The notes: generated from the sequence alone by a model not told the origin. Positions 50,795 to 57,631 are shown, numbered from the stretch's first letter. The stretch is 64,000 nucleotides of DNA from Candidatus Hydrogenedens sp. (GCA_049968235.1 JBMFRC010000009.1:64001-128000); one strand, 5' to 3'. Numbers and translations are program-made.

Positions 50795-50992
50795 TTATGC
50801 GTAAGGAAGCATCACTTTTACATTTTTTGCTTCTACAGATGAGACCAGTGTAGTCTTTCTCAGGTGTCTCTTCTTCTTTGCTGATTTGGTCGTTTTTAAA
50901 TGCCTATTATAGGCTTTCTTTCTCAAAACCTTCCCGTTTTTAGTAACCTTAAATCTTTTTGATGCACTCTTATTCGTTTTTAATTTTGTCAT
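50795..50992 (-). CDS. rpmI: 50S ribosomal protein L35
   Basis: MTKLKTNKSASKRFKVTKNGKVLRKKAYNRHL. Confidence 0.9.
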   Translation of the reverse strand: MTKLKTNKSASKRFKVTKNGKVLRKKAYNRHLKTTKSAKKKRHLRKTTLVSSVEAKNVKVMLPYA

Positions 50993-51071
50993 GGATTAAC
51001 TCCTTTTTATTTAAACGTATTACAATTAATACATTTCTGGATAAAGAAGTTCCTTTTAGATTTGTCGTCGT

Positions 51072-51608
51072 TTAATTTGATTTGCCCGGACTGAGAGTAA
51101 TAGTTAACGACCTATCCTCAGGACGACAATGTTCGAGCGAGTATGTTTCTGAGCAAAGGTCCTTTGTAGATTCAATAATATTCTTTAGAACTTCGTAGGC
51201 AAATTCGGGGTGTTCATATTCACGACCTCGAAATACCACTGAGACCTTCACCTTATTTCCTTCTTCAAGGAACTCTCGTATATGTTTTAGTTTATATTCG
51301 AAATCATGTTTATCAATTTTCGGTCTTAGTTTTATTTCCTTCAGCACAATTACATGCTGTTTCCTTTTTGCTTCGCGGGCTCTTCTTTTCTGTTCATAAC
51401 GGTATTTACCATAATCCATTATTCTACATACTGGCGGGGTAGCATTGGGTGCTACTTCTACGAGGTCCAGTTCACGCATTTCGGCTTCCCTCAGAGCATC
51501 TCTTTTGCTCATGATACCTAACTGAACCCCTTTATCATCAATTACTCTTACCTGCGGAGCCCTGATTTCTTCATTCACCCGCACCGTGTCTTCAGACGGC
51601 TTTGCTAT
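51072..51608 (-). CDS. infC: Translation initiation factor IF-3, start re-assigned to AUA
   Basis: IF-3 consensus throughout (PVCRIMDYGKY...). An AAGGAG RBS lies 7 nt upstream of an in-frame ATA at 51608; the listed GTG start lies 8 codons inside. Rare AUU/AUA starts are the established autoregulatory feature of infC. Confidence 0.85.
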   Translation of the reverse strand: MAKPSEDTVRVNEEIRAPQVRVIDDKGVQLGIMSKRDALREAEMRELDLVEVAPNATPPVCRIMDYGKYRYEQKRRAREAKRKQHVIVLKEIKLRPKIDKHDFEYKLKHIREFLEEGNKVKVSVVFRGREYEHPEFAYEVLKNIIESTKDLCSETYSLEHCRPEDRSLTITLSPGKSN

Positions 51609-51786
51609 CGTTGTTCTCCTTAATTTATAGTTTTATTTGCCTCAACTTTTGATAAAATTATACTTTAACAGTATACATTTTATCAAATTGAAATTGATAC
51701 TTTGTAATAAGACCGACCAGTCAGACCTGTAACTTGTTTATCCCGGCTGACTTGTCCAACACAAAAACAAAGAAAAGGAGGCCATT

Positions 51787-52887
51787 ATGAAAATATGTGT
51801 TTTAGGTGGATGTGGGGATATGGCAAAAGTCGCCCTCGAATTACTTGCAAAAGAAACAGATGCTACTTCCGTTACCATTGCTGACATCAACATAGAAAAA
51901 GCGAAGCAAATTGCGGAGAATCTCGGAAGCAAGTTCTCCGCAAAATTTGTTAATGCAAAAGACAAATCCTCTATTATAGATGCAGTGAAAGAACATGATG
52001 CCACATTGGGATTTATTGGTCCTTTTTACCTATTTGAAAAAGATATTATTCAAGCATGTCTCGATGCTAAAGTTCCCTATGTTAGTATTTGCGACGATTA
52101 TGATGCGTATCTTTCTGCAATAACCCTGGATAACATTGCAAAAGAGAAAGGCATTACAGTTATTGCCGGATTAGGAAATTCCCCGGGAATAACCAATCTT
52201 TTAGCGAAAAAAGGCTATCTTTCTATGGACAAACCTGAACGCATTGAAATCAACTGGGCGGGCGGTTCTGATGAAGATATTGGACCAGCAAATGTAAAGC
52301 ATGTATTGCATATCTTCAGTGGATATACACTACAATGGCGAGATGGAAAAGAAGTAAGAATTAAAACGGGCACAGAACGGAAAGTAGTGGACTTCCCTGA
52401 ACCTATGGGAAAATTACCGGTCTATATCACGGGACATGCAGAGTCTGTTTCTGTTCCACGCAATTTACCCGGCTTAAAATATGTTTCACTTCACGGAGGA
52501 ATTCACCCACCTTATATTGCCCGATTAGCCACATTTTTAGGTAAACTCGGATTAACAAATACTCCTCAAAAACGAGAAAAACTCACAAAAATTTTACTGC
52601 CTCTTGTTAATATGGGTATTTTCTCTAAAGGCGGTATTGACCAGTCTGTATTTCGCATCGATGTTTACGGTGAAAAAGAGGGAAAAACTGCACACCATTA
52701 TTATTCAGGAGTAGGGCATATCGCTGATATAACAAGCATCCCTGCCGTTGAAGGAGCCCTTATGATAGCCAGAGGAGAACTAAATAAACCCGGCGTTCAT
52801 TCCGCTGAATCAGCTATTGATGATGTAGATGATTTCTTAAATCGTCTTCAGAATCGTGGCGTAAAACTCTTCTATCACGAAGAATAA
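51787..52887 (+). CDS. Saccharopine dehydrogenase-like NAD(P)-binding oxidoreductase
   Basis: MKICVLGGCGDMAKV Rossmann N-terminus; family-typical 366 aa. Confidence 0.65.
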   Translation: MKICVLGGCGDMAKVALELLAKETDATSVTIADINIEKAKQIAENLGSKFSAKFVNAKDKSSIIDAVKEHDATLGFIGPFYLFEKDIIQACLDAKVPYVSICDDYDAYLSAITLDNIAKEKGITVIAGLGNSPGITNLLAKKGYLSMDKPERIEINWAGGSDEDIGPANVKHVLHIFSGYTLQWRDGKEVRIKTGTERKVVDFPEPMGKLPVYITGHAESVSVPRNLPGLKYVSLHGGIHPPYIARLATFLGKLGLTNTPQKREKLTKILLPLVNMGIFSKGGIDQSVFRIDVYGEKEGKTAHHYYSGVGHIADITSIPAVEGALMIARGELNKPGVHSAESAIDDVDDFLNRLQNRGVKLFYHEE

Positions 52888-52964
52888 CATTAAAATTTAT
52901 CTATTCAATGGGTCAAACATATCCAACCTGTCCAACCCATCGAATGTGCTTTATCCGATATTCT

Positions 52965-53648
52965 CTACCTTTCCAATTTTTTATGGGAGAACCACCAATC
53001 GAAACATTCATAACCACCTTCTTTTGCTTTAGATAAACGTTCTTTGGCACTATGGGTATCCGTTGGTGGTGGTATAATCACGCGGTCCTTAATCAATTCA
53101 TTGTTAGGCCAATTTTCAGGCATGGCAACCTTATACTTGTCCGCAATTTGTAACGCCTCTACAATTCGGACAACTTCGTCAATATTTCTACCTACCTCTT
53201 GCGGATAATAAATAATCAACCGTATCCTGGCTTTGTCATCCACAACAAATACTGCACGAACTGTATTCGTACCTTTTCCCGGATGGACCAATCCAAGAGT
53301 ATTAGCAATGGCTCCATTATCTGCAATAATAGGAAATTGAATATCAATTCCTAACTTCTCCCGTATCCATTCTTCCCACTTTATATGTGAGAACACCTGG
53401 TCCATACTTAGACCTATCAATTCGCAATTTAACGTCTTAAACTTATCATACCGTTTTTGAAATGCAACAAACTCTGTGGTGCATACAGGCGTAAAATCCG
53501 CTGGGTGGCTGAACAGAACAAACCACTTTCCTGCAAATGCCTTTGGCAATTCCATTTTCCCATGTGTTGTCATTACATTCATCGCAGGGAACTCATCTCC
53601 TAATAATGGAATCCCTTGTTTTGTCCCTTCAGAACTATTCATAGACAC
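52965..53648 (-). CDS. Peroxiredoxin (1-Cys Prx/Prx6 type)
   Basis: [12 protein letters not shown] peroxidatic-Cys motif. Confidence 0.85.
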
Positions 53649-53698
53649 TCTCCTTTCCTGAAAATAAAGTTAAATGTTACATAACACAATGAAAAATT

Positions 53699-54467
53699 AT
53701 ATGAGACCTCTGAATAAGTCATTCGAGTTAGCTAGTATGTATAAAGATATTATATACGAGAGGGGGTGAAAAAAAAATGAAACGAGATAAGAGAGAAAAG
53801 TGCTATAAATATAGCAGAAGTATTTTGGGTTAAATAACAAAGCAAGGGAAAAATAAAAATGAAGGAAAATCAACGTAGTATGGTAAAAAAGATAGAGCAA
53901 ACAAGTTTTATAGATTACGAGATGTTCCATCAGAAACCGCCTCGTCGTAGATGTTCTTTGAGGCAGATGCAAGAAGTAATACTATGGAAGGAACTTGGGT
54001 AGAGGGCGTATAGGGAGGAGTATATAAGGTGAACAGGGGAGAACGAAGACTTACGTCCTTACTATTTTATGCATTATTGAGCAGTGCGTGATAATGTCTA
54101 TGTGCTTTTGTGGCTATTACATCCAAATCTTTACCTTTTCTTTTCTCAGTATTTTCTTTGGTTGATTATATTTTTTCCCCACTACCAAAGAACACGGAGG
54201 TGCATGGAGGATACGGTGGGGTACAGTGAGACATAGGGAGAGGAGTATATCATTTCTTCTGAATGACTAAATATATTTGAAATGGATGTATGATTAGAGG
54301 TATGCATAGATACAAAAAGATAGAAAACGGACAGAAAAAACAAAATAAATTGATAAAAGTAGAAATACAGACTTTTGTATTTTAATTTCTCATCGGGATT
54401 TTATCTCGTAAAAATATATATAATTTATACCATTACCTCTTACACCACTTTTTCAGAGGTCTCATAT
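53699..54467. other. 769-bp non-coding element bounded by perfect 16-bp terminal inverted repeats (ATATGAGACCTCTGAA / TTCAGAGGTCTCATAT): candidate MITE or large structured ncRNA
   Basis: Left inverted repeat at 53699-53714, right at 54452-54467. No ORF of 60 aa or more on the plus strand. Internal direct repeat TAGGGAG(A)GGAGTATAT at 54011-26 and 54234-50. Confidence 0.5.
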
Positions 54468-55415
54468 CTTTTTTTGGTCCCTCAATGTATTCCGTTCCCA
54501 GAATACTCCATCCACATAGCCTTGAATTGTTCTATCAGAGTTGGCTAATTCTAATCGTTTTTCTGCTAAACAGCAATAAGTTTCGTCGATTTCTACCCCG
54601 CAATATTGCCTTCCTAATTTTTTAGCCACAACACATGTAGTCCCTACACCCGAAAACGGGTCAAATATAAAATCACCTTCTTTTGAACTGGCAAGGATAA
54701 TTTTCGCTACGAGTTTCTCCGGTTTTTGTGTTGGATGGTCTGTATTCTCAGGCATAGACCAGAACGGCACAGTTATATCTGTCCATAAATTAGAAGGATA
54801 TGTAAGCCGATAATTGCCATCGGTTTCTACTTTCCAATCTTTAGGGTTACCTGTTTCATCACGATAAGGTGCAATTACTTTCCGTTTCAGCATTACCGCT
54901 TTGCTATTAAAATAAAATTTATTTGAGACCGTTCCAAACCATATATCTTCCGAACAATTTTTCCAGTTATTCTTCGCACCTCTACCTTTTTCCCGTTCCC
55001 ATGTAATTCGATTTCGCACCTTAAAATATTTTGACATAACTCGATAAATAGCGGAGGAAGATTTCCAATCTCCACAGATATAAATAGAACCTGTCTGCTT
55101 TAATATCTTTCTCAACGGTTTTAACCAGGAATCCATCCATATTTCATACTCTTCCGAAGACATTTCACGAAATTTATTCGAATTAAAGTCTTTATGCAAA
55201 TTATAAGGGGGGTCTATAAATAACAAATCAACAAATGATTCAGGTAAAAAGTCAATAACTTCAAACAAATCTTGATGAAGAATTTTGTTGGTTATCTTCT
55301 CAACCGATACAGGATGGTTAATTCGTAAAATCTGTTTCGTATAAATCGATACTTCTTGTTTTGAGAGGGTTGTTGTCCTATTCCGTCCTGCTTTAAGATG
55401 TTTATCTACTGACAT
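54462..55415 (-). CDS. Orphan beta-class N6-adenine/N4-cytosine DNA methyltransferase
   Basis: DPPY (motif IV) near the N-terminus precedes FDPFSGVGTT (motif I), which is the beta-class order. No adjacent restriction endonuclease; lies 53 bp downstream of the ssrA 3' end. Confidence 0.8.
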   Translation of the reverse strand: MSVDKHLKAGRNRTTTLSKQEVSIYTKQILRINHPVSVEKITNKILHQDLFEVIDFLPESFVDLLFIDPPYNLHKDFNSNKFREMSSEEYEIWMDSWLKPLRKILKQTGSIYICGDWKSSSAIYRVMSKYFKVRNRITWEREKGRGAKNNWKNCSEDIWFGTVSNKFYFNSKAVMLKRKVIAPYRDETGNPKDWKVETDGNYRLTYPSNLWTDITVPFWSMPENTDHPTQKPEKLVAKIILASSKEGDFIFDPFSGVGTTCVVAKKLGRQYCGVEIDETYCCLAEKRLELANSDRTIQGYVDGVFWERNTLRDQKKI

Positions 55416-55468
55416 ACCTACTTTTTTGTAGTCGTATTATATACGAGCAAATCCTTTTTAATAAATAA

Positions 55469-55827
55469 TGGTGGAGGCGGCGGGAATCGAACCCGCGTCC
55501 GAAGATGTTTCAGTGCGGACCTACTACATGCTTAGCCCATCCTTTATAGATTCGCCATTGCGGAGCGCCTCAGGGCGGGCTCACCACAACCGCTATGCGG
55601 GATAGTTACTGCCTTTCAGGCACCGCAAATCCCAAAAGGACAGACCTGCTGGTTGACGCCCCAGTCCGTTAGCAGGCAATCACGGGTGGGACGCGCTGCG
55701 CGTATTAGGCAGCGAGGGCCAATTCTTGATTGGCAGTTGTTTGCGACCGGCTTTTAACGAGGCCAACCGGTCAACCTCGGCATGCATTCCACACCTCAAC
55801 CATCCCCGTCGAAACCTTTTCGCCCCC
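55469..55827 (-). ncRNA. ssrA: tmRNA (ssrA), one-piece; encoded tag ANQELALAA followed by UAA
   Basis: 5' GGGGGCGAAAAGGUUUCGACGGGG..GCAUGCCGAGG..UUGGCCUCGUUAAAAGCCGGUCGCAAAC.., tag ORF GCC AAU CAA GAA UUG GCC CUC GCU GCC UAA, 3' tRNA-like end GGGUUCGAUUCCCGCCGCCUCCACCA. Confidence 0.9.
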
Positions 55828-55970
55828 AGCAACATCCTATTATTCAATTGTTGTATTATATTATACGATATTTGATATCTAAAAATTTACAATAAAGATA
55901 AATTTTTTCAATAATATATTATTCTATTACTTATGTTGTCCCTATCTTTCTGGCTAAGATAAAATTAGAC

Positions 55971-57631
55971 ATGTCGAGAGGAAGTGAAGTAATGAAAAAT
56001 TTCTTCTCAAAAAAATCCTGCAAATCAATCTACTACCCTTTTGGATTCATTTTTTCTATCGTGCTAATTAATACGATTGCAAATAGTGAAGGAAATCAAC
56101 CAACATCTTTATCTACAACAATAGACCCCATTACTCGTTATATTCACATTTCATATACAGTCCCTGCAGGTACACCCGGAGAAAAACAATCTTATGCTCA
56201 TGATCTCCTATGGACAGACAACACATAGTCCTGAAACAAACCCATTACTACACAGGTTATACCGAAAGTAGAATTGATTATATTAAGTTAGTCCCCTTAT
56301 CCACAGAACAGGTACAAATGTTAGAAAGCCAATTTGGAACACCCGACAAAATCGTTGCAGGCTATTTTGAACCTTACTCATGGGCATTCTTCGAGGATAT
56401 ACAGGAAAGCCTGCAACATCGAGAACCTATTTCCACATATAAGGAAGCACGAGTTAATATCGTAGACATCCAGGTGGGTCGCTTCGGCATGAAAGTCGTT
56501 TATGAATCACGCTTAACCGACCAATTTCTTTACAACACTATCGGCGACCCTATCGGCGGTGTTATCCCCCATACAAGTAATGTCGGAAAAATGCAACAAA
56601 TGACCAACACATTACAAACCGAACTCCAATATGCCCACGAATTAGGCTTAACCGCACACGCCAACTTCGGAGCGACCTACTGCTATCCCGACACACCATT
56701 ACAAAGTGATTTTTCAAAACAACACCCCGATTGGATGACGGACGGATTATTGAGATATGACATACCCGAAGTTCGTCAATATATCTTATCCTTACTAAAA
56801 GAGACGCTTGAAATTGGTGCAGATGGCATCTCCATAGATTTTTGTAGGTATCCCGGTGGTATTGACAAACCTGAAACTTGCAATCAATTCCTGCGAGAAC
56901 TCAAAGCACTACGCGAAGAATTTGCAAAAAAACGTGATAAATCCATACCCTTATTACTCCGTTTCCCGGCGGAAGGTGTAAGTCTCTGGAAAAATTTCGA
57001 CTACAACACATGGATTCATGAAGGATTAGTTGATTACCTCTGCCCAAGCAACATCTAGGGCAGACATATGCACTTCGACATCACCCCATACAGCAACGCC
57101 GTTCGTGGCTCAACATGCAAACTACTCCCCGTCATTGATGGATTAAGTTGGGGACTCGAAATACCCGCCCTATTCCTATGGCGTATCCATCAACTCTACC
57201 AGGCAGGCACCGACGGCATTTATGTATACCAATCCGACGCACGCATCTGCACCAATAAACGACCAGAAGACAGACGCTGTATACGACTCATTTCCAGTAG
57301 CGAAGCAGTTCATAACTGGTGGCAACGATACAACAAACAAAATCAACAATTTAGCAAACGCATCTGGATACAACCCTCCGAAGACGGAGACCTCGAATAC
57401 CATAACTGGGAACGCTGTCGAATCTGGGTAGAAGGAATTACCCCTAACGAGGTCCAAATCCTCCTCGATGGACAACTCACCAATACTTATACTCAACCTC
57501 CCTAAATACTTGGCGGAGAAGATTACACCTACGATAACCTTATCACCCCCGGCACACACACCCTCACCATCCACGCCAAAACACAAGACACCACTCTATC
57601 CCAAACTTTCACCATCTCCGGCACAAAATAA
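55971..57631 (+). pseudogene. Disrupted glycoside-hydrolase-like family 10 (GHL10/DUF187) gene: one frameshift (about 56204-56228) and in-frame stops TAG (57056-58) and TAA (57503-05)
   Basis: Four consecutive ORF pieces that together read as one secreted protein (signal peptide ... GADGISIDFCRYPGG ... beta-sandwich C-terminus). Confidence 0.6.

What the first reader, a model, noticed from the sequence alone, without database searches (positions are those of the whole stretch)
53699..54467. 769-bp non-coding element with perfect 16-bp terminal inverted repeats, wedged between the ssrA-linked methyltransferase and the peroxiredoxin gene
The repeat ATATGAGACCTCTGAA (53699-53714) and its exact reverse complement (54452-54467) enclose about 740 bp with no credible ORF. 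The span is locally purine-rich with GGAGG-type motifs and carries an internal direct repeat, TAGGGAG(A)GGAGTATAT at 54011 and 54234. The right repeat overlaps the stop codon of the DNA methyltransferase gene. A perfect 16-bp pair is unlikely to arise by chance at this spacing. It fits either the terminal inverted repeats of a non-autonomous transposon (MITE) or the closing helix of a large structured ncRNA. Large ncRNAs of the GOLLD/ROOL kind are characteristically found next to tRNA/tmRNA genes in prophage-like DNA, and this element lies about 1 kb from ssrA.
Basis: seen in the sequence. Interest (0 to 1): 0.62.

Follow-up and report, generated by a model that had tools for sequence, protein, structure and literature searches.

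The report
Transposase-less IS5-type transposon insertion
The 769-bp span is an ordinary non-autonomous mobile element, 761 bp long with IS5/IS1182-type terminal inverted repeats and an ATAT target duplication, that inserted at the stop codon of a DNA methyltransferase gene in one Candidatus Hydrogenedens lineage; it is not a large structured RNA.

Summary
ATATGAGACCTCTGAA (53699-53714) and its exact reverse complement (54452-54467) enclose DNA with stop codons in all six frames.

Four results identify it:
- Four related Hydrogenedens lineages (MTase 79-86% identical) keep the same methyltransferase-peroxiredoxin gene order with a 65-117 bp spacer. Here the spacer is 813 bp, so about 760 bp were inserted.
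- The repeat resolves into a 4-bp duplication (ATAT) plus a 17-bp terminal inverted repeat, GAGACCTCTGAA(A/T)AAGT.
- That repeat is the end sequence of a very widespread element lineage. Inverted pairs usually bound 47-400 bp elements with 5-bp duplications. Full-length copies encode IS5-family (321-325 aa) or IS1182-family (485-490 aa) transposases.
- Published IS5-family ends are nearly the same (ISNme1: GAGACCTTTGCAAAA).

The interior has no transposase, no Rfam match and no folding signal once the repeats are removed (z about -1). No second copy was found, so "MITE family" in the multicopy sense is unproven. Removing the element and one ATAT restores a 317-aa methyltransferase ending in TAA.

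Verdict: a new member of a known kind, of low interest.

The parts
53699..53702 (.). Target-site duplication, copy 1 (ATAT), on the peroxiredoxin side
   Evidence: Direct repeat ATAT abuts both element ends. In the wider family, 24 of 54 inverted pairs have a perfect 4-6 bp duplication, against 1 of 54 in a shifted control.
53703..53719 (+). Terminal inverted repeat, peroxiredoxin-side end: GAGACCTCTGAATAAGT
   Evidence: 16 of 17 identical to the modal family end GAGACCTCTGAAAAAGT.
53720..54446 (.). Non-coding interior (727 bp), AT-rich and purine-rich on the + strand
   Evidence: Stops in all six frames. No transposase similarity by tblastn or NCBIfam. No Rfam hit. MFE z-scores of -0.9 and -1.0 against dinucleotide shuffles. 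No similarity to the interiors of L015-L134 or to plasmid and phage collections.
53859..54002 (+). 47-aa ORF, called as a gene in GCA_049971155.1; possibly a relic of a transposase N-terminus (weak)
   Evidence: The gene call is. Its frame aligns to positions 6-52 of an HMM built from 8 transposases of same-end elements (LRQMQEVILWKELG against the LeklkeivdwkeI region of the profile consensus). The score is 4.6 bits, the best of 1206 frames including 1200 from shuffled sequence. NCBIfam finds nothing, so this is a hint only.
54447..54463 (-). Terminal inverted repeat, methyltransferase-side end: GAGACCTCTGAAAAAGT read on the - strand
   Evidence: 17 of 17 identical to the modal family end. Its first two bases (GA) supply the last two bases of the methyltransferase stop codon TGA.
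54464..54467 (.). Target-site duplication, copy 2 (ATAT). It overlaps the last sense codon (ATA) and the first base of the methyltransferase stop codon.
   Evidence: Deleting 53703-54467 restores ...AAG ATA TAA and a 317-aa protein.
54462..55415 (-). N6/N4 DNA methyltransferase gene (317 aa); its stop codon is rebuilt by the insertion junction
   Evidence: Pfam PF01555, E = 1.9e-43. Orthologues P0002-P0004, 81-86% identical, are also 317 aa.
52965..53648 (-). 1-Cys peroxiredoxin gene, now 813 bp rather than 65-117 bp downstream of the methyltransferase gene
   Evidence: Pfam AhpC-TSA and 1-cysPrx_C.

Best explanation
The feature is a 761-bp non-autonomous DNA transposon (53703-54463). It carries the 17-bp terminal inverted repeats typical of one widespread IS5/IS1182-type insertion-sequence lineage, GAGACCTCTGAA(A/T)AAGT.

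Shown: it sits at an ATAT target that spanned the last codon and stop codon of the methyltransferase gene in the lineage of this Candidatus Hydrogenedens species. The ATAT is duplicated. The methyltransferase and peroxiredoxin genes are now about 760 bp further apart than in relatives.

Inferred: a DDE transposase supplied in trans, of the IS5 or IS1182 family, bound the two ends and cut and pasted the element. Staggered cleavage and repair produced the short duplication.

The element encodes no transposase. It is either a MITE-like derivative with an unrelated interior or a heavily decayed, internally deleted IS copy. The methyltransferase keeps its length because the junction creates a new TGA stop. 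Any effect on peroxiredoxin expression is untested.
For: 1. Empty sites. Relatives with the same methyltransferase to peroxiredoxin gene order have spacers of 117 bp (L002-L005), 65 bp (L006-L008), 82 bp (L009-L011, where peroxiredoxin is truncated) and 73 bp (L013), against 813 bp here. Alignment places the extra DNA exactly between the ATAT copies.
2. Deleting the element plus one ATAT restores a 317-aa methyltransferase with a TAA stop, the same length as P0002-P0004.
3. The end sequence is not random. The scan for the W variant hit the limit in GTDB genomes, with many copies per genome in Brocadiales, Deltaproteobacteria and others.
4. Among 54 non-redundant inverted pairs (median length 153 bp), 24 have a perfect 4-6 bp flanking duplication, 19 of them exactly 5 bp. 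The shifted control gives 1 of 54.
5. Longer pairs enclose transposases. L026, L067, L082, L174, L209, L241 and L248 carry 321-325 aa proteins; L026 and L082, the two scanned, match NF033581 (IS5 family) at 204-276 bits against a cutoff of 140. L096, L100 and L107 carry 485-490 aa proteins; L100 and L107, the two scanned, match NF033551 (IS1182 family) at 294-304 bits against a cutoff of 270.
6. E. coli IS5A ends, GGAAGGTGCGAA(T/C)AAG, share the inner GAAnAAG(T). The published IS5-family ends of ISNme1 (GAGACCTTTGCAAAA) and the BrickBuilt MITE (GAGACCTTTGCA) match 13 of 15 and 10 of 12 (PMC4596501).
7. The element has no coding capacity and no transposase in it.
8. It is present in three assemblies of this species: the window, L001 and L014.
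Against: No second copy of this particular element was found. There is none in the other 63 kb of the window, none among the metagenome loci L015-L134 beyond the shared ends (the genome-scan loci L137-L254 were not compared with the interior), none among GTDB species representatives for a 20-mer at the left end, and none in the plasmid or phage collections. Multicopy status is therefore unproven.

No IS5 or IS1182 transposase lies in the window or in the fetched Hydrogenedens loci.

The duplication is 4 bp and palindromic, so it reads equally as part of the inverted repeat, whereas the family mode is 5 bp.

Relatives end the methyltransferase gene in ATATGA rather than the inferred ATATAA, so the reconstructed target needs one extra nucleotide difference.
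Confidence: 0.9

Rival explanations
1. The span is a large structured non-coding RNA gene of the GOLLD/ROOL/OLE/HEARO kind, with the inverted repeat as its closing helix.
For: The whole span folds with z = -5.9 on the + strand, though from only 20 shuffles. It is purine-rich with GGAGG-like motifs. A tmRNA gene lies about 1 kb away.
Against: No Rfam family matches at gathering threshold or at E <= 10; the only hits are two low-complexity ones with E about 6. Without the terminal repeats the interior folds like shuffled sequence, at z = -0.9 and -1.0, within the range of four control segments. The earlier z-score therefore comes from the repeat stem. The sequence is absent from the orthologous site of relatives, so no conservation or covariation exists to support a structure. 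The tmRNA-methyltransferase adjacency is core synteny, not an island.
Confidence: 0.02
2. The element is a decayed, internally deleted copy of a once-autonomous IS5-type insertion sequence, not a member of a MITE family with its own unrelated interior.
For: It appears to be single-copy. At 761 bp it is about 60% of the 1.2-kb full-length IS5-type copies. The + strand has the purine skew typical of a coding strand. The 47-aa ORF frame gives the best score of 1206 frames against a transposase N-terminal profile, in the expected orientation from the nearer end.
Against: That score is only 4.6 bits (i-Evalue about 1). NCBIfam and tblastn find no transposase similarity. There is no trace of the DUF772 or DDE regions. 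The ends remain 16 and 17 of 17 intact, which would be odd if the interior had decayed beyond recognition.
Confidence: 0.3
3. The inverted repeat is a chance feature of a fast-evolving, expanded intergenic spacer and no mobile element is involved.
For: Perfect 16-mer inverted pairs at this spacing occur in about 3% of simulated 64-kb windows. Six of the 16 bases (ATATGA) are native methyltransferase sequence that is conserved in relatives.
Against: The repeat matches the modal 17-mer end of a transposon lineage, 17 of 17 at one end and 16 of 17 at the other, in the correct inverted orientation. The boundaries of the extra DNA relative to the empty sites coincide with those ends. A direct ATAT duplication flanks them.
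Confidence: 0.02
4. The element has been put to use: its interior or its junction supplies a promoter or regulatory RNA for the peroxiredoxin gene 56 bp downstream.
For: The peroxiredoxin-side junction reads GGTCTCATATAAT, which creates a perfect TATAAT hexamer 50 bp upstream of the peroxiredoxin ATG. A sigma-70-like site (10 of 12 matches) at 54100-54073 on the - strand points towards peroxiredoxin. IS5-family elements are reported to drive downstream genes (PMC3281130).
Against: The number of promoter-like sites equals the shuffle expectation, 5 against 4.9. No good -35 hexamer sits at 16-18 bp from the junction TATAAT (read directly from the sequence). Promoter rules in Hydrogenedentota are unknown. 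There are no expression data.
Confidence: 0.1

Closest known systems
ISNme1 (IS5 family, Neisseria meningitidis) and its proposed MITE derivative ATR
   Same: The end sequence is almost identical: GAGACCTTTGCAAAA against GAGACCTCTGAAAAA here, 13 of 15 (PMC4596501). A non-autonomous AT-rich derivative is thought to be mobilised through shared ends.
   Different: The host phylum differs. The window element is 761 bp and apparently single-copy. Its interior is unrelated to any interior among the metagenome loci L015-L134. No cognate transposase has been found in this genome.
BrickBuilt and the other IS5-family-end MITEs of Porphyromonas gingivalis
   Same: They have GAGACCTTTGCA...TGCAAAGGTCTC ends shared with resident IS5-family elements, no transposase remnant, variable short duplications, and similarity to other elements confined to the ends (PMC4596501).
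   Different: BrickBuilt is present in about 10-20 copies per genome and contains a minisatellite. No further copies and no internal tandem repeat were found here.
E. coli IS5 (IS5A, insH1)
   Same: The inner half of the end sequence is shared: GGAAGGTGCGAA(T/C)AAG(T) against GAGACCTCTGAA(A/T)AAGT. Full-length relatives of the window's ends carry the same transposase architecture, DUF772 plus DDE_Tnp_1. IS5 makes a 4-bp duplication (my own knowledge of IS5, not tested here).
   Different: The outer 9 bp of the end differ. IS5 is autonomous (1195 bp, 326-aa InsH). The window element has no transposase.
IS1182-family insertion sequences
   Same: Copies 1.7 kb long with the same GAGACCTCTGAAAAAGT ends (L100, and L107 nearby) encode 485-aa transposases that pass the NF033551 cutoff. 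ISPse1 has 16-bp ends and a 4-bp duplication (PMC3281130 Table 2).
   Different: The window element lacks the gene. Which of the two transposase types mobilised it cannot be told from the ends alone.

Membership tests
Non-autonomous IS5/IS1182-type element (MITE-like) | Terminal inverted repeats matching those of autonomous members of the family | tested here: met
   17 of 17 and 16 of 17 to the modal end of elements that carry NF033581 or NF033551 transposases. 13 of 15 to the published ISNme1 end.
Non-autonomous IS5/IS1182-type element (MITE-like) | Short direct target-site duplication abutting the ends | tested here: met
   ATAT at 53699-53702 and 54464-54467. Family pairs show 4-6 bp duplications in 24 of 54, against 1 of 54 in the control. 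Caveat: ATAT is palindromic, and the family mode is 5 bp.
Non-autonomous IS5/IS1182-type element (MITE-like) | Orthologous empty site in related genomes | tested here: met
   Spacers of 65-117 bp in L002-L011 and L013 against 813 bp here. The gap boundaries fall at the element ends. The reconstructed site restores a 317-aa methyltransferase.
Non-autonomous IS5/IS1182-type element (MITE-like) | No functional transposase gene; size 50-1000 bp | tested here: met
   761 bp with 8-19 stops per frame. No Pfam, NCBIfam or tblastn transposase signal. The size range is as given in PMC4596501.
Non-autonomous IS5/IS1182-type element (MITE-like) | Multiple copies of the same element in the genome | tested here: inconclusive
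   No other copy in the 64-kb window, in L015-L134 or in GTDB representatives for a 20-mer at the left end. The rest of the source genome could not be searched.
Non-autonomous IS5/IS1182-type element (MITE-like) | A cognate autonomous element with the same ends in the same genome | tested here: inconclusive
   No IS5 or IS1182 transposase in the window or in Hydrogenedens loci L001-L014. The whole genome was not available.
Large structured ncRNAs (GOLLD, ROOL, OLE, HEARO) | Match to the family covariance model | tested here: not met
   No Rfam 15 match at gathering score in the whole window, apart from tmRNA and tRNAs, and none at E <= 10 within 53500-54700 apart from two spurious low-complexity hits.
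Large structured ncRNAs (GOLLD, ROOL, OLE, HEARO) | Conserved secondary structure, thermodynamically or by covariation | tested here: not met
   Interior MFE z = -0.9 (+) and -1.0 (-) with 60 dinucleotide shuffles, the same as controls. No homologues exist for a covariation test, because the sequence is absent from relatives.
Large structured ncRNAs (GOLLD, ROOL, OLE, HEARO) | Transcription as a discrete RNA | not testable with these tools
   No expression data were available.

The most novel reading that the evidence does not exclude
The 727-bp interior is not junk. On this reading it is a cargo captured between IS5-type ends, such as a regulatory RNA or promoter module, and it now controls the adjacent peroxiredoxin gene. 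The element would then be a mobile regulatory cassette rather than a dead transposon.
Probability: 0.06. Interest if true: 0.4.

Novelty: new member of a known kind. Interest (0 to 1): 0.12.

Why it matters
It matters little in itself. It documents a recent, lineage-specific insertion of a transposase-less IS5/IS1182-type element in an uncultured Hydrogenedentota genome. The insertion lies exactly on a stop codon, and the junction rebuilds the stop, so the methyltransferase is unchanged. It also shows that a perfect inverted repeat enclosing non-coding DNA near a tmRNA gene need not be a large ncRNA.

The side observation may be more useful for annotating metagenome-assembled genomes. The same 17-bp end bounds very abundant 47-400 bp hairpin-bearing elements across Planctomycetota, Deltaproteobacteria, Nitrospirae, candidate phyla radiation (CPR) lineages and others.

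Tried and rejected
- Rfam at gathering threshold on the whole window, and at E <= 10 on 53500-54700, gave nothing relevant. Rfam on 11 loci carrying short family members found only tRNAs.
- Folding the whole span gave z = -5.9. I rejected this as evidence for an RNA after the interior alone gave z about -1. An earlier version of that script timed out.
- The promoter and terminator scan gave counts at shuffle expectation and no terminator.
- Searches for other copies all failed: the window, the fetched loci, GTDB representatives with the 20-mer CTGAATAAGTCATTCGAGTT, and plasmids and phages by distant blastn.
- Searches for a transposase relic were essentially negative. tblastn of 189 neighbouring ORFs against the insert gave a best E of 0.004, not significant after 189 queries. 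NCBIfam on the three + strand frame translations and the 47-aa ORF found none. A custom HMM gave only 4.6 bits.
- L043 first looked like a 970-bp element between inverted motifs. It is in fact ordinary DNA between two outward-facing element ends.
- I fetched E. coli coordinates from memory for IS5 and got IS186. This was corrected.
- A literature search for the exact end sequence found no microbial paper.

Full report
**Observation**

The sequence is as described. ATATGAGACCTCTGAA occupies 53699-53714 and its exact reverse complement occupies 54452-54467. With mismatches allowed, the arms extend to 28 nt at 25 of 28 complementary.

The span lies between two minus-strand genes. One is a 1-Cys peroxiredoxin (52965-53648; AhpC-TSA, 1-cysPrx_C). 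The other is an N6/N4 DNA methyltransferase (54462-55415; PF01555, E = 1.9e-43). A tmRNA gene lies at 55469-55827.

The span has 8-19 stop codons in each of the six frames, and none of its short ORFs matches Pfam. It is AT-rich with a strong purine excess on the + strand.

A perfect 16-mer inverted pair 100-1000 bp apart is expected 0.037 times per 64-kb window in order-2 Markov simulations, with at least one in 9 of 300. That is unusual but not decisive on its own.

I treat it as chance.

**Source and comparative context**

The methyltransferase is 100% identical to a protein annotated "MAG: DNA-methyltransferase [Candidatus Hydrogenedens sp.]". A 4.9-kb contig of GCA_049971155.1 (L001) matches window 50968-55855 except for one extra A in the poly-A run at 53768. 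A contig of GCA_049969095.1 (L014) starts inside the span, at window 53755, and contains the peroxiredoxin-side repeat. The insert is therefore present in three assemblies of this species.

Relatives give the key result. Their methyltransferases are 79-86% identical, and they keep the same methyltransferase to peroxiredoxin to saccharopine-dehydrogenase order. Their methyltransferase-peroxiredoxin spacers are short:
- 117 bp in L002-L005
- 65 bp in L006-L008
- 82 bp in L009-L011, where peroxiredoxin is truncated
- 73 bp in L013

Here the spacer is 813 bp. In L006, L009 and L012 the tmRNA gene also sits just upstream of the methyltransferase gene. This is conserved core synteny and not a prophage-like island.

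Alignments place all the extra DNA as one block bounded by the repeats. The span is therefore an insertion of about 760 bp specific to this lineage.

**Anatomy of the junctions**

Read in the sense of the methyltransferase gene, the left junction is ...AAAAAAGATAT|GAGACCTCTGAAAAAGT... The right junction is ...ACTTATTCAGAGGTCTC|ATATAATTTTTC....

The 16-bp repeat therefore resolves into three parts:
- a 4-bp direct duplication, ATAT, which is palindromic and so also reads as inverted;
- a 12-bp perfect terminal inverted repeat;
- a continuation inward to 17 bp with one mismatch, GAGACCTCTGAA(A/T)AAGT.

The element proper is 53703-54463 (761 bp). The methyltransferase stop codon TGA is made of the last T of the duplication plus the first GA of the element. 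Removing the element and one ATAT gives ...AAG ATA TAA TTT... and a 317-aa protein. That is the length of orthologues P0002-P0004. Relatives end the gene in ATATGA, so the inferred pre-insertion site differs from them by one nucleotide.

**What the ends belong to**

Of 123 matches, 102 had N = A, which is far from random. The flank outside the motif is diverse and often AT-rich. The flank inside falls into many unrelated groups.

In 54 non-redundant cases the motif recurs nearby in inverted orientation. These pairs bound elements of 47-3122 bp, with a median of 153 bp. Twenty-four of the 54 have a perfect 4-6 bp direct repeat abutting GAGACC...GGTCTC, and 19 of those are exactly 5 bp. A shifted control gives 1 of 54. 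These are real transposition products.

Longer elements with these ends carry transposases:
- L026 and L067 (1198 bp between ends), L082 (1208 bp), and L174, L209, L241 and L248 encode 321-325 aa proteins. L026 and L082 were scanned; both have DUF772 plus DDE_Tnp_1 and pass NF033581 "IS5 family transposase" at 204-276 bits against a cutoff of 140. The others were assigned by BLASTP similarity to L026.
- L100 (1737 bp), L107 and L096 encode 485-490 aa proteins. L100 and L107 were scanned and pass NF033551 "IS1182 family transposase" at 294-304 bits against a cutoff of 270; L096 was assigned by BLASTP.

There were several copies per genome in Brocadiales and other Planctomycetota and in Deltaproteobacteria. 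Hits also occurred in Nitrospirae, Bacteroidales, Clostridia, Ignavibacteriales and candidate phyla radiation (CPR) lineages.

The ends of E. coli IS5A, GGAAGGTGCGAATAAG and GGAAGGTGCGAACAAGT, share the inner GAAnAAG(T). The literature lists nearly identical IS5-family ends: ISNme1 GAGACCTTTGCAAAA and the P. gingivalis MITE BrickBuilt GAGACCTTTGCA. It notes that such MITEs share only their ends with resident IS5-family elements and keep no transposase remnant (PMC4596501).

**The interior**

Beyond the ends, the 727-bp interior has no similarity to the interiors of the metagenome loci L015-L134 (the genome-scan loci L137-L254 were not compared), to the rest of the window, or to plasmid and phage collections. 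A 20-mer spanning the left end and subterminal region has no exact match in GTDB representatives.

There is no transposase relic by tblastn or NCBIfam.

One weak hint exists. The frame of the 47-aa ORF at 53859-54002, called as a gene in L001, aligns with the N-terminal region of a profile built from eight transposases of same-end elements (...LRQMQEVILWKELG against ...LeklkeivdwkeI in the profile consensus). The score is 4.6 bits, the best of 1206 frames that include 1200 from shuffled sequence. This is compatible with a decayed IS copy but is not significant alone.

**Is it an RNA?**

Rfam finds nothing. The full span folds with z = -5.9 on the + strand, from 20 shuffles. With the terminal repeats removed, the interior gives z = -0.9 (+) and -1.0 (-) with 60 dinucleotide-preserving shuffles, which is within the range of four control segments. 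The apparent structure is therefore just the repeat stem. Relatives lack the sequence, so there is nothing on which to test covariation. I find no support for a GOLLD/ROOL-type RNA.

**Mechanism**

Shown: the insertion, its boundaries, the ends, the duplication, the absence of a transposase, and the rebuilt stop codon.

Inferred from the established behaviour of DDE transposons of the IS5/IS1182 type: a transposase supplied in trans recognised the two ends and integrated the element at a staggered cut in ATAT. Repair of the stagger produced the duplication.

Not shown: which transposase acted, whether the element can still move, and what it does to peroxiredoxin expression. The peroxiredoxin-side junction creates a TATAAT hexamer 50 bp upstream of the ATG. 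However, promoter-like sites in the region are no more frequent than in shuffles, and no terminator-like site is present.

**Comparison and novelty**

This is a new member of a known kind: a non-autonomous element with IS5-family-type ends, like the Neisseria ATR and the P. gingivalis BrickBuilt MITEs. It meets every structural criterion of a MITE that I could test, namely ends, duplication, empty site, size and absence of a transposase. The exception is copy number, which the available sequence cannot settle. It may instead be a solitary decayed IS copy; I give that about 0.3 within the main explanation. Interest is low.

Noticed in passing
L016 5795-5915; L052 2878-3028; L062 1381-1510; L071 641-771; L122 3307-3465 and 3648-3786; L038 (three copies): Very abundant short elements (47-400 bp, median 153) are bounded by GAGACCTCTGAAAAAGT ends and mostly 5-bp duplications. 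Their interiors are GC-rich hairpins, for example TGTCATTGCGAGGAGCGAAGCGACGAAGCAATCTC. They occur across Planctomycetota (Brocadiales), Deltaproteobacteria, Nitrospirae, candidate phyla radiation (CPR) lineages and others.
   Followed up: partly
L012 1053-2040 (GCA_900175155.1, a related Hydrogenedens): About 1 kb of non-coding DNA lies between tmRNA and the methyltransferase gene, where other relatives have about 55 bp. It has long inverted CCACAGAGGACACGGAG-type repeats and a 15-nt match to the window's end sequence (TTATTCAGAGGTCTC, 1661-1675), possibly paired with a degenerate left end at 1525. In the same genome peroxiredoxin is replaced by an NTP_transf_2/HEPN gene pair.
   Followed up: partly
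L009-L011 (peroxiredoxin at about 2968-3162 in L009) and L009/L012 downstream: In another related lineage peroxiredoxin is truncated to a 64-aa fragment, and a Cas9 gene (about 1066-1075 aa) lies beyond the saccharopine dehydrogenase gene. This neighbourhood is rearranged repeatedly among Hydrogenedens genomes.
   Followed up: no
window 54462-55415: The methyltransferase is unusually conserved. The 120 best clusters are 66-86% identical and include proteins from Planctomycetes, Elusimicrobiota and Candidatus Saccharicenans. In Hydrogenedens it sits next to tmRNA with no restriction gene beside it, which suggests a conserved orphan methyltransferase rather than part of a mobile restriction-modification system.
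   Followed up: partly
window 53768 (poly-A run 53768-53776); window 53755: The window has 9 A where L001 has 10, a homopolymer length difference inside the element. The contig of a third assembly (L014) begins inside the element at window 53755, just short of this run, so assembly is unstable there.
   Followed up: no
window 56210-57058 and 57068-57505: Two adjacent + strand ORFs lie beyond the tmRNA gene. The first has only a sub-threshold GHL10 (glycosyl hydrolase-like 10) match at 18.3 bits against a cutoff of 27.9. They may be one gene split by a frameshift or stop.
   Followed up: no
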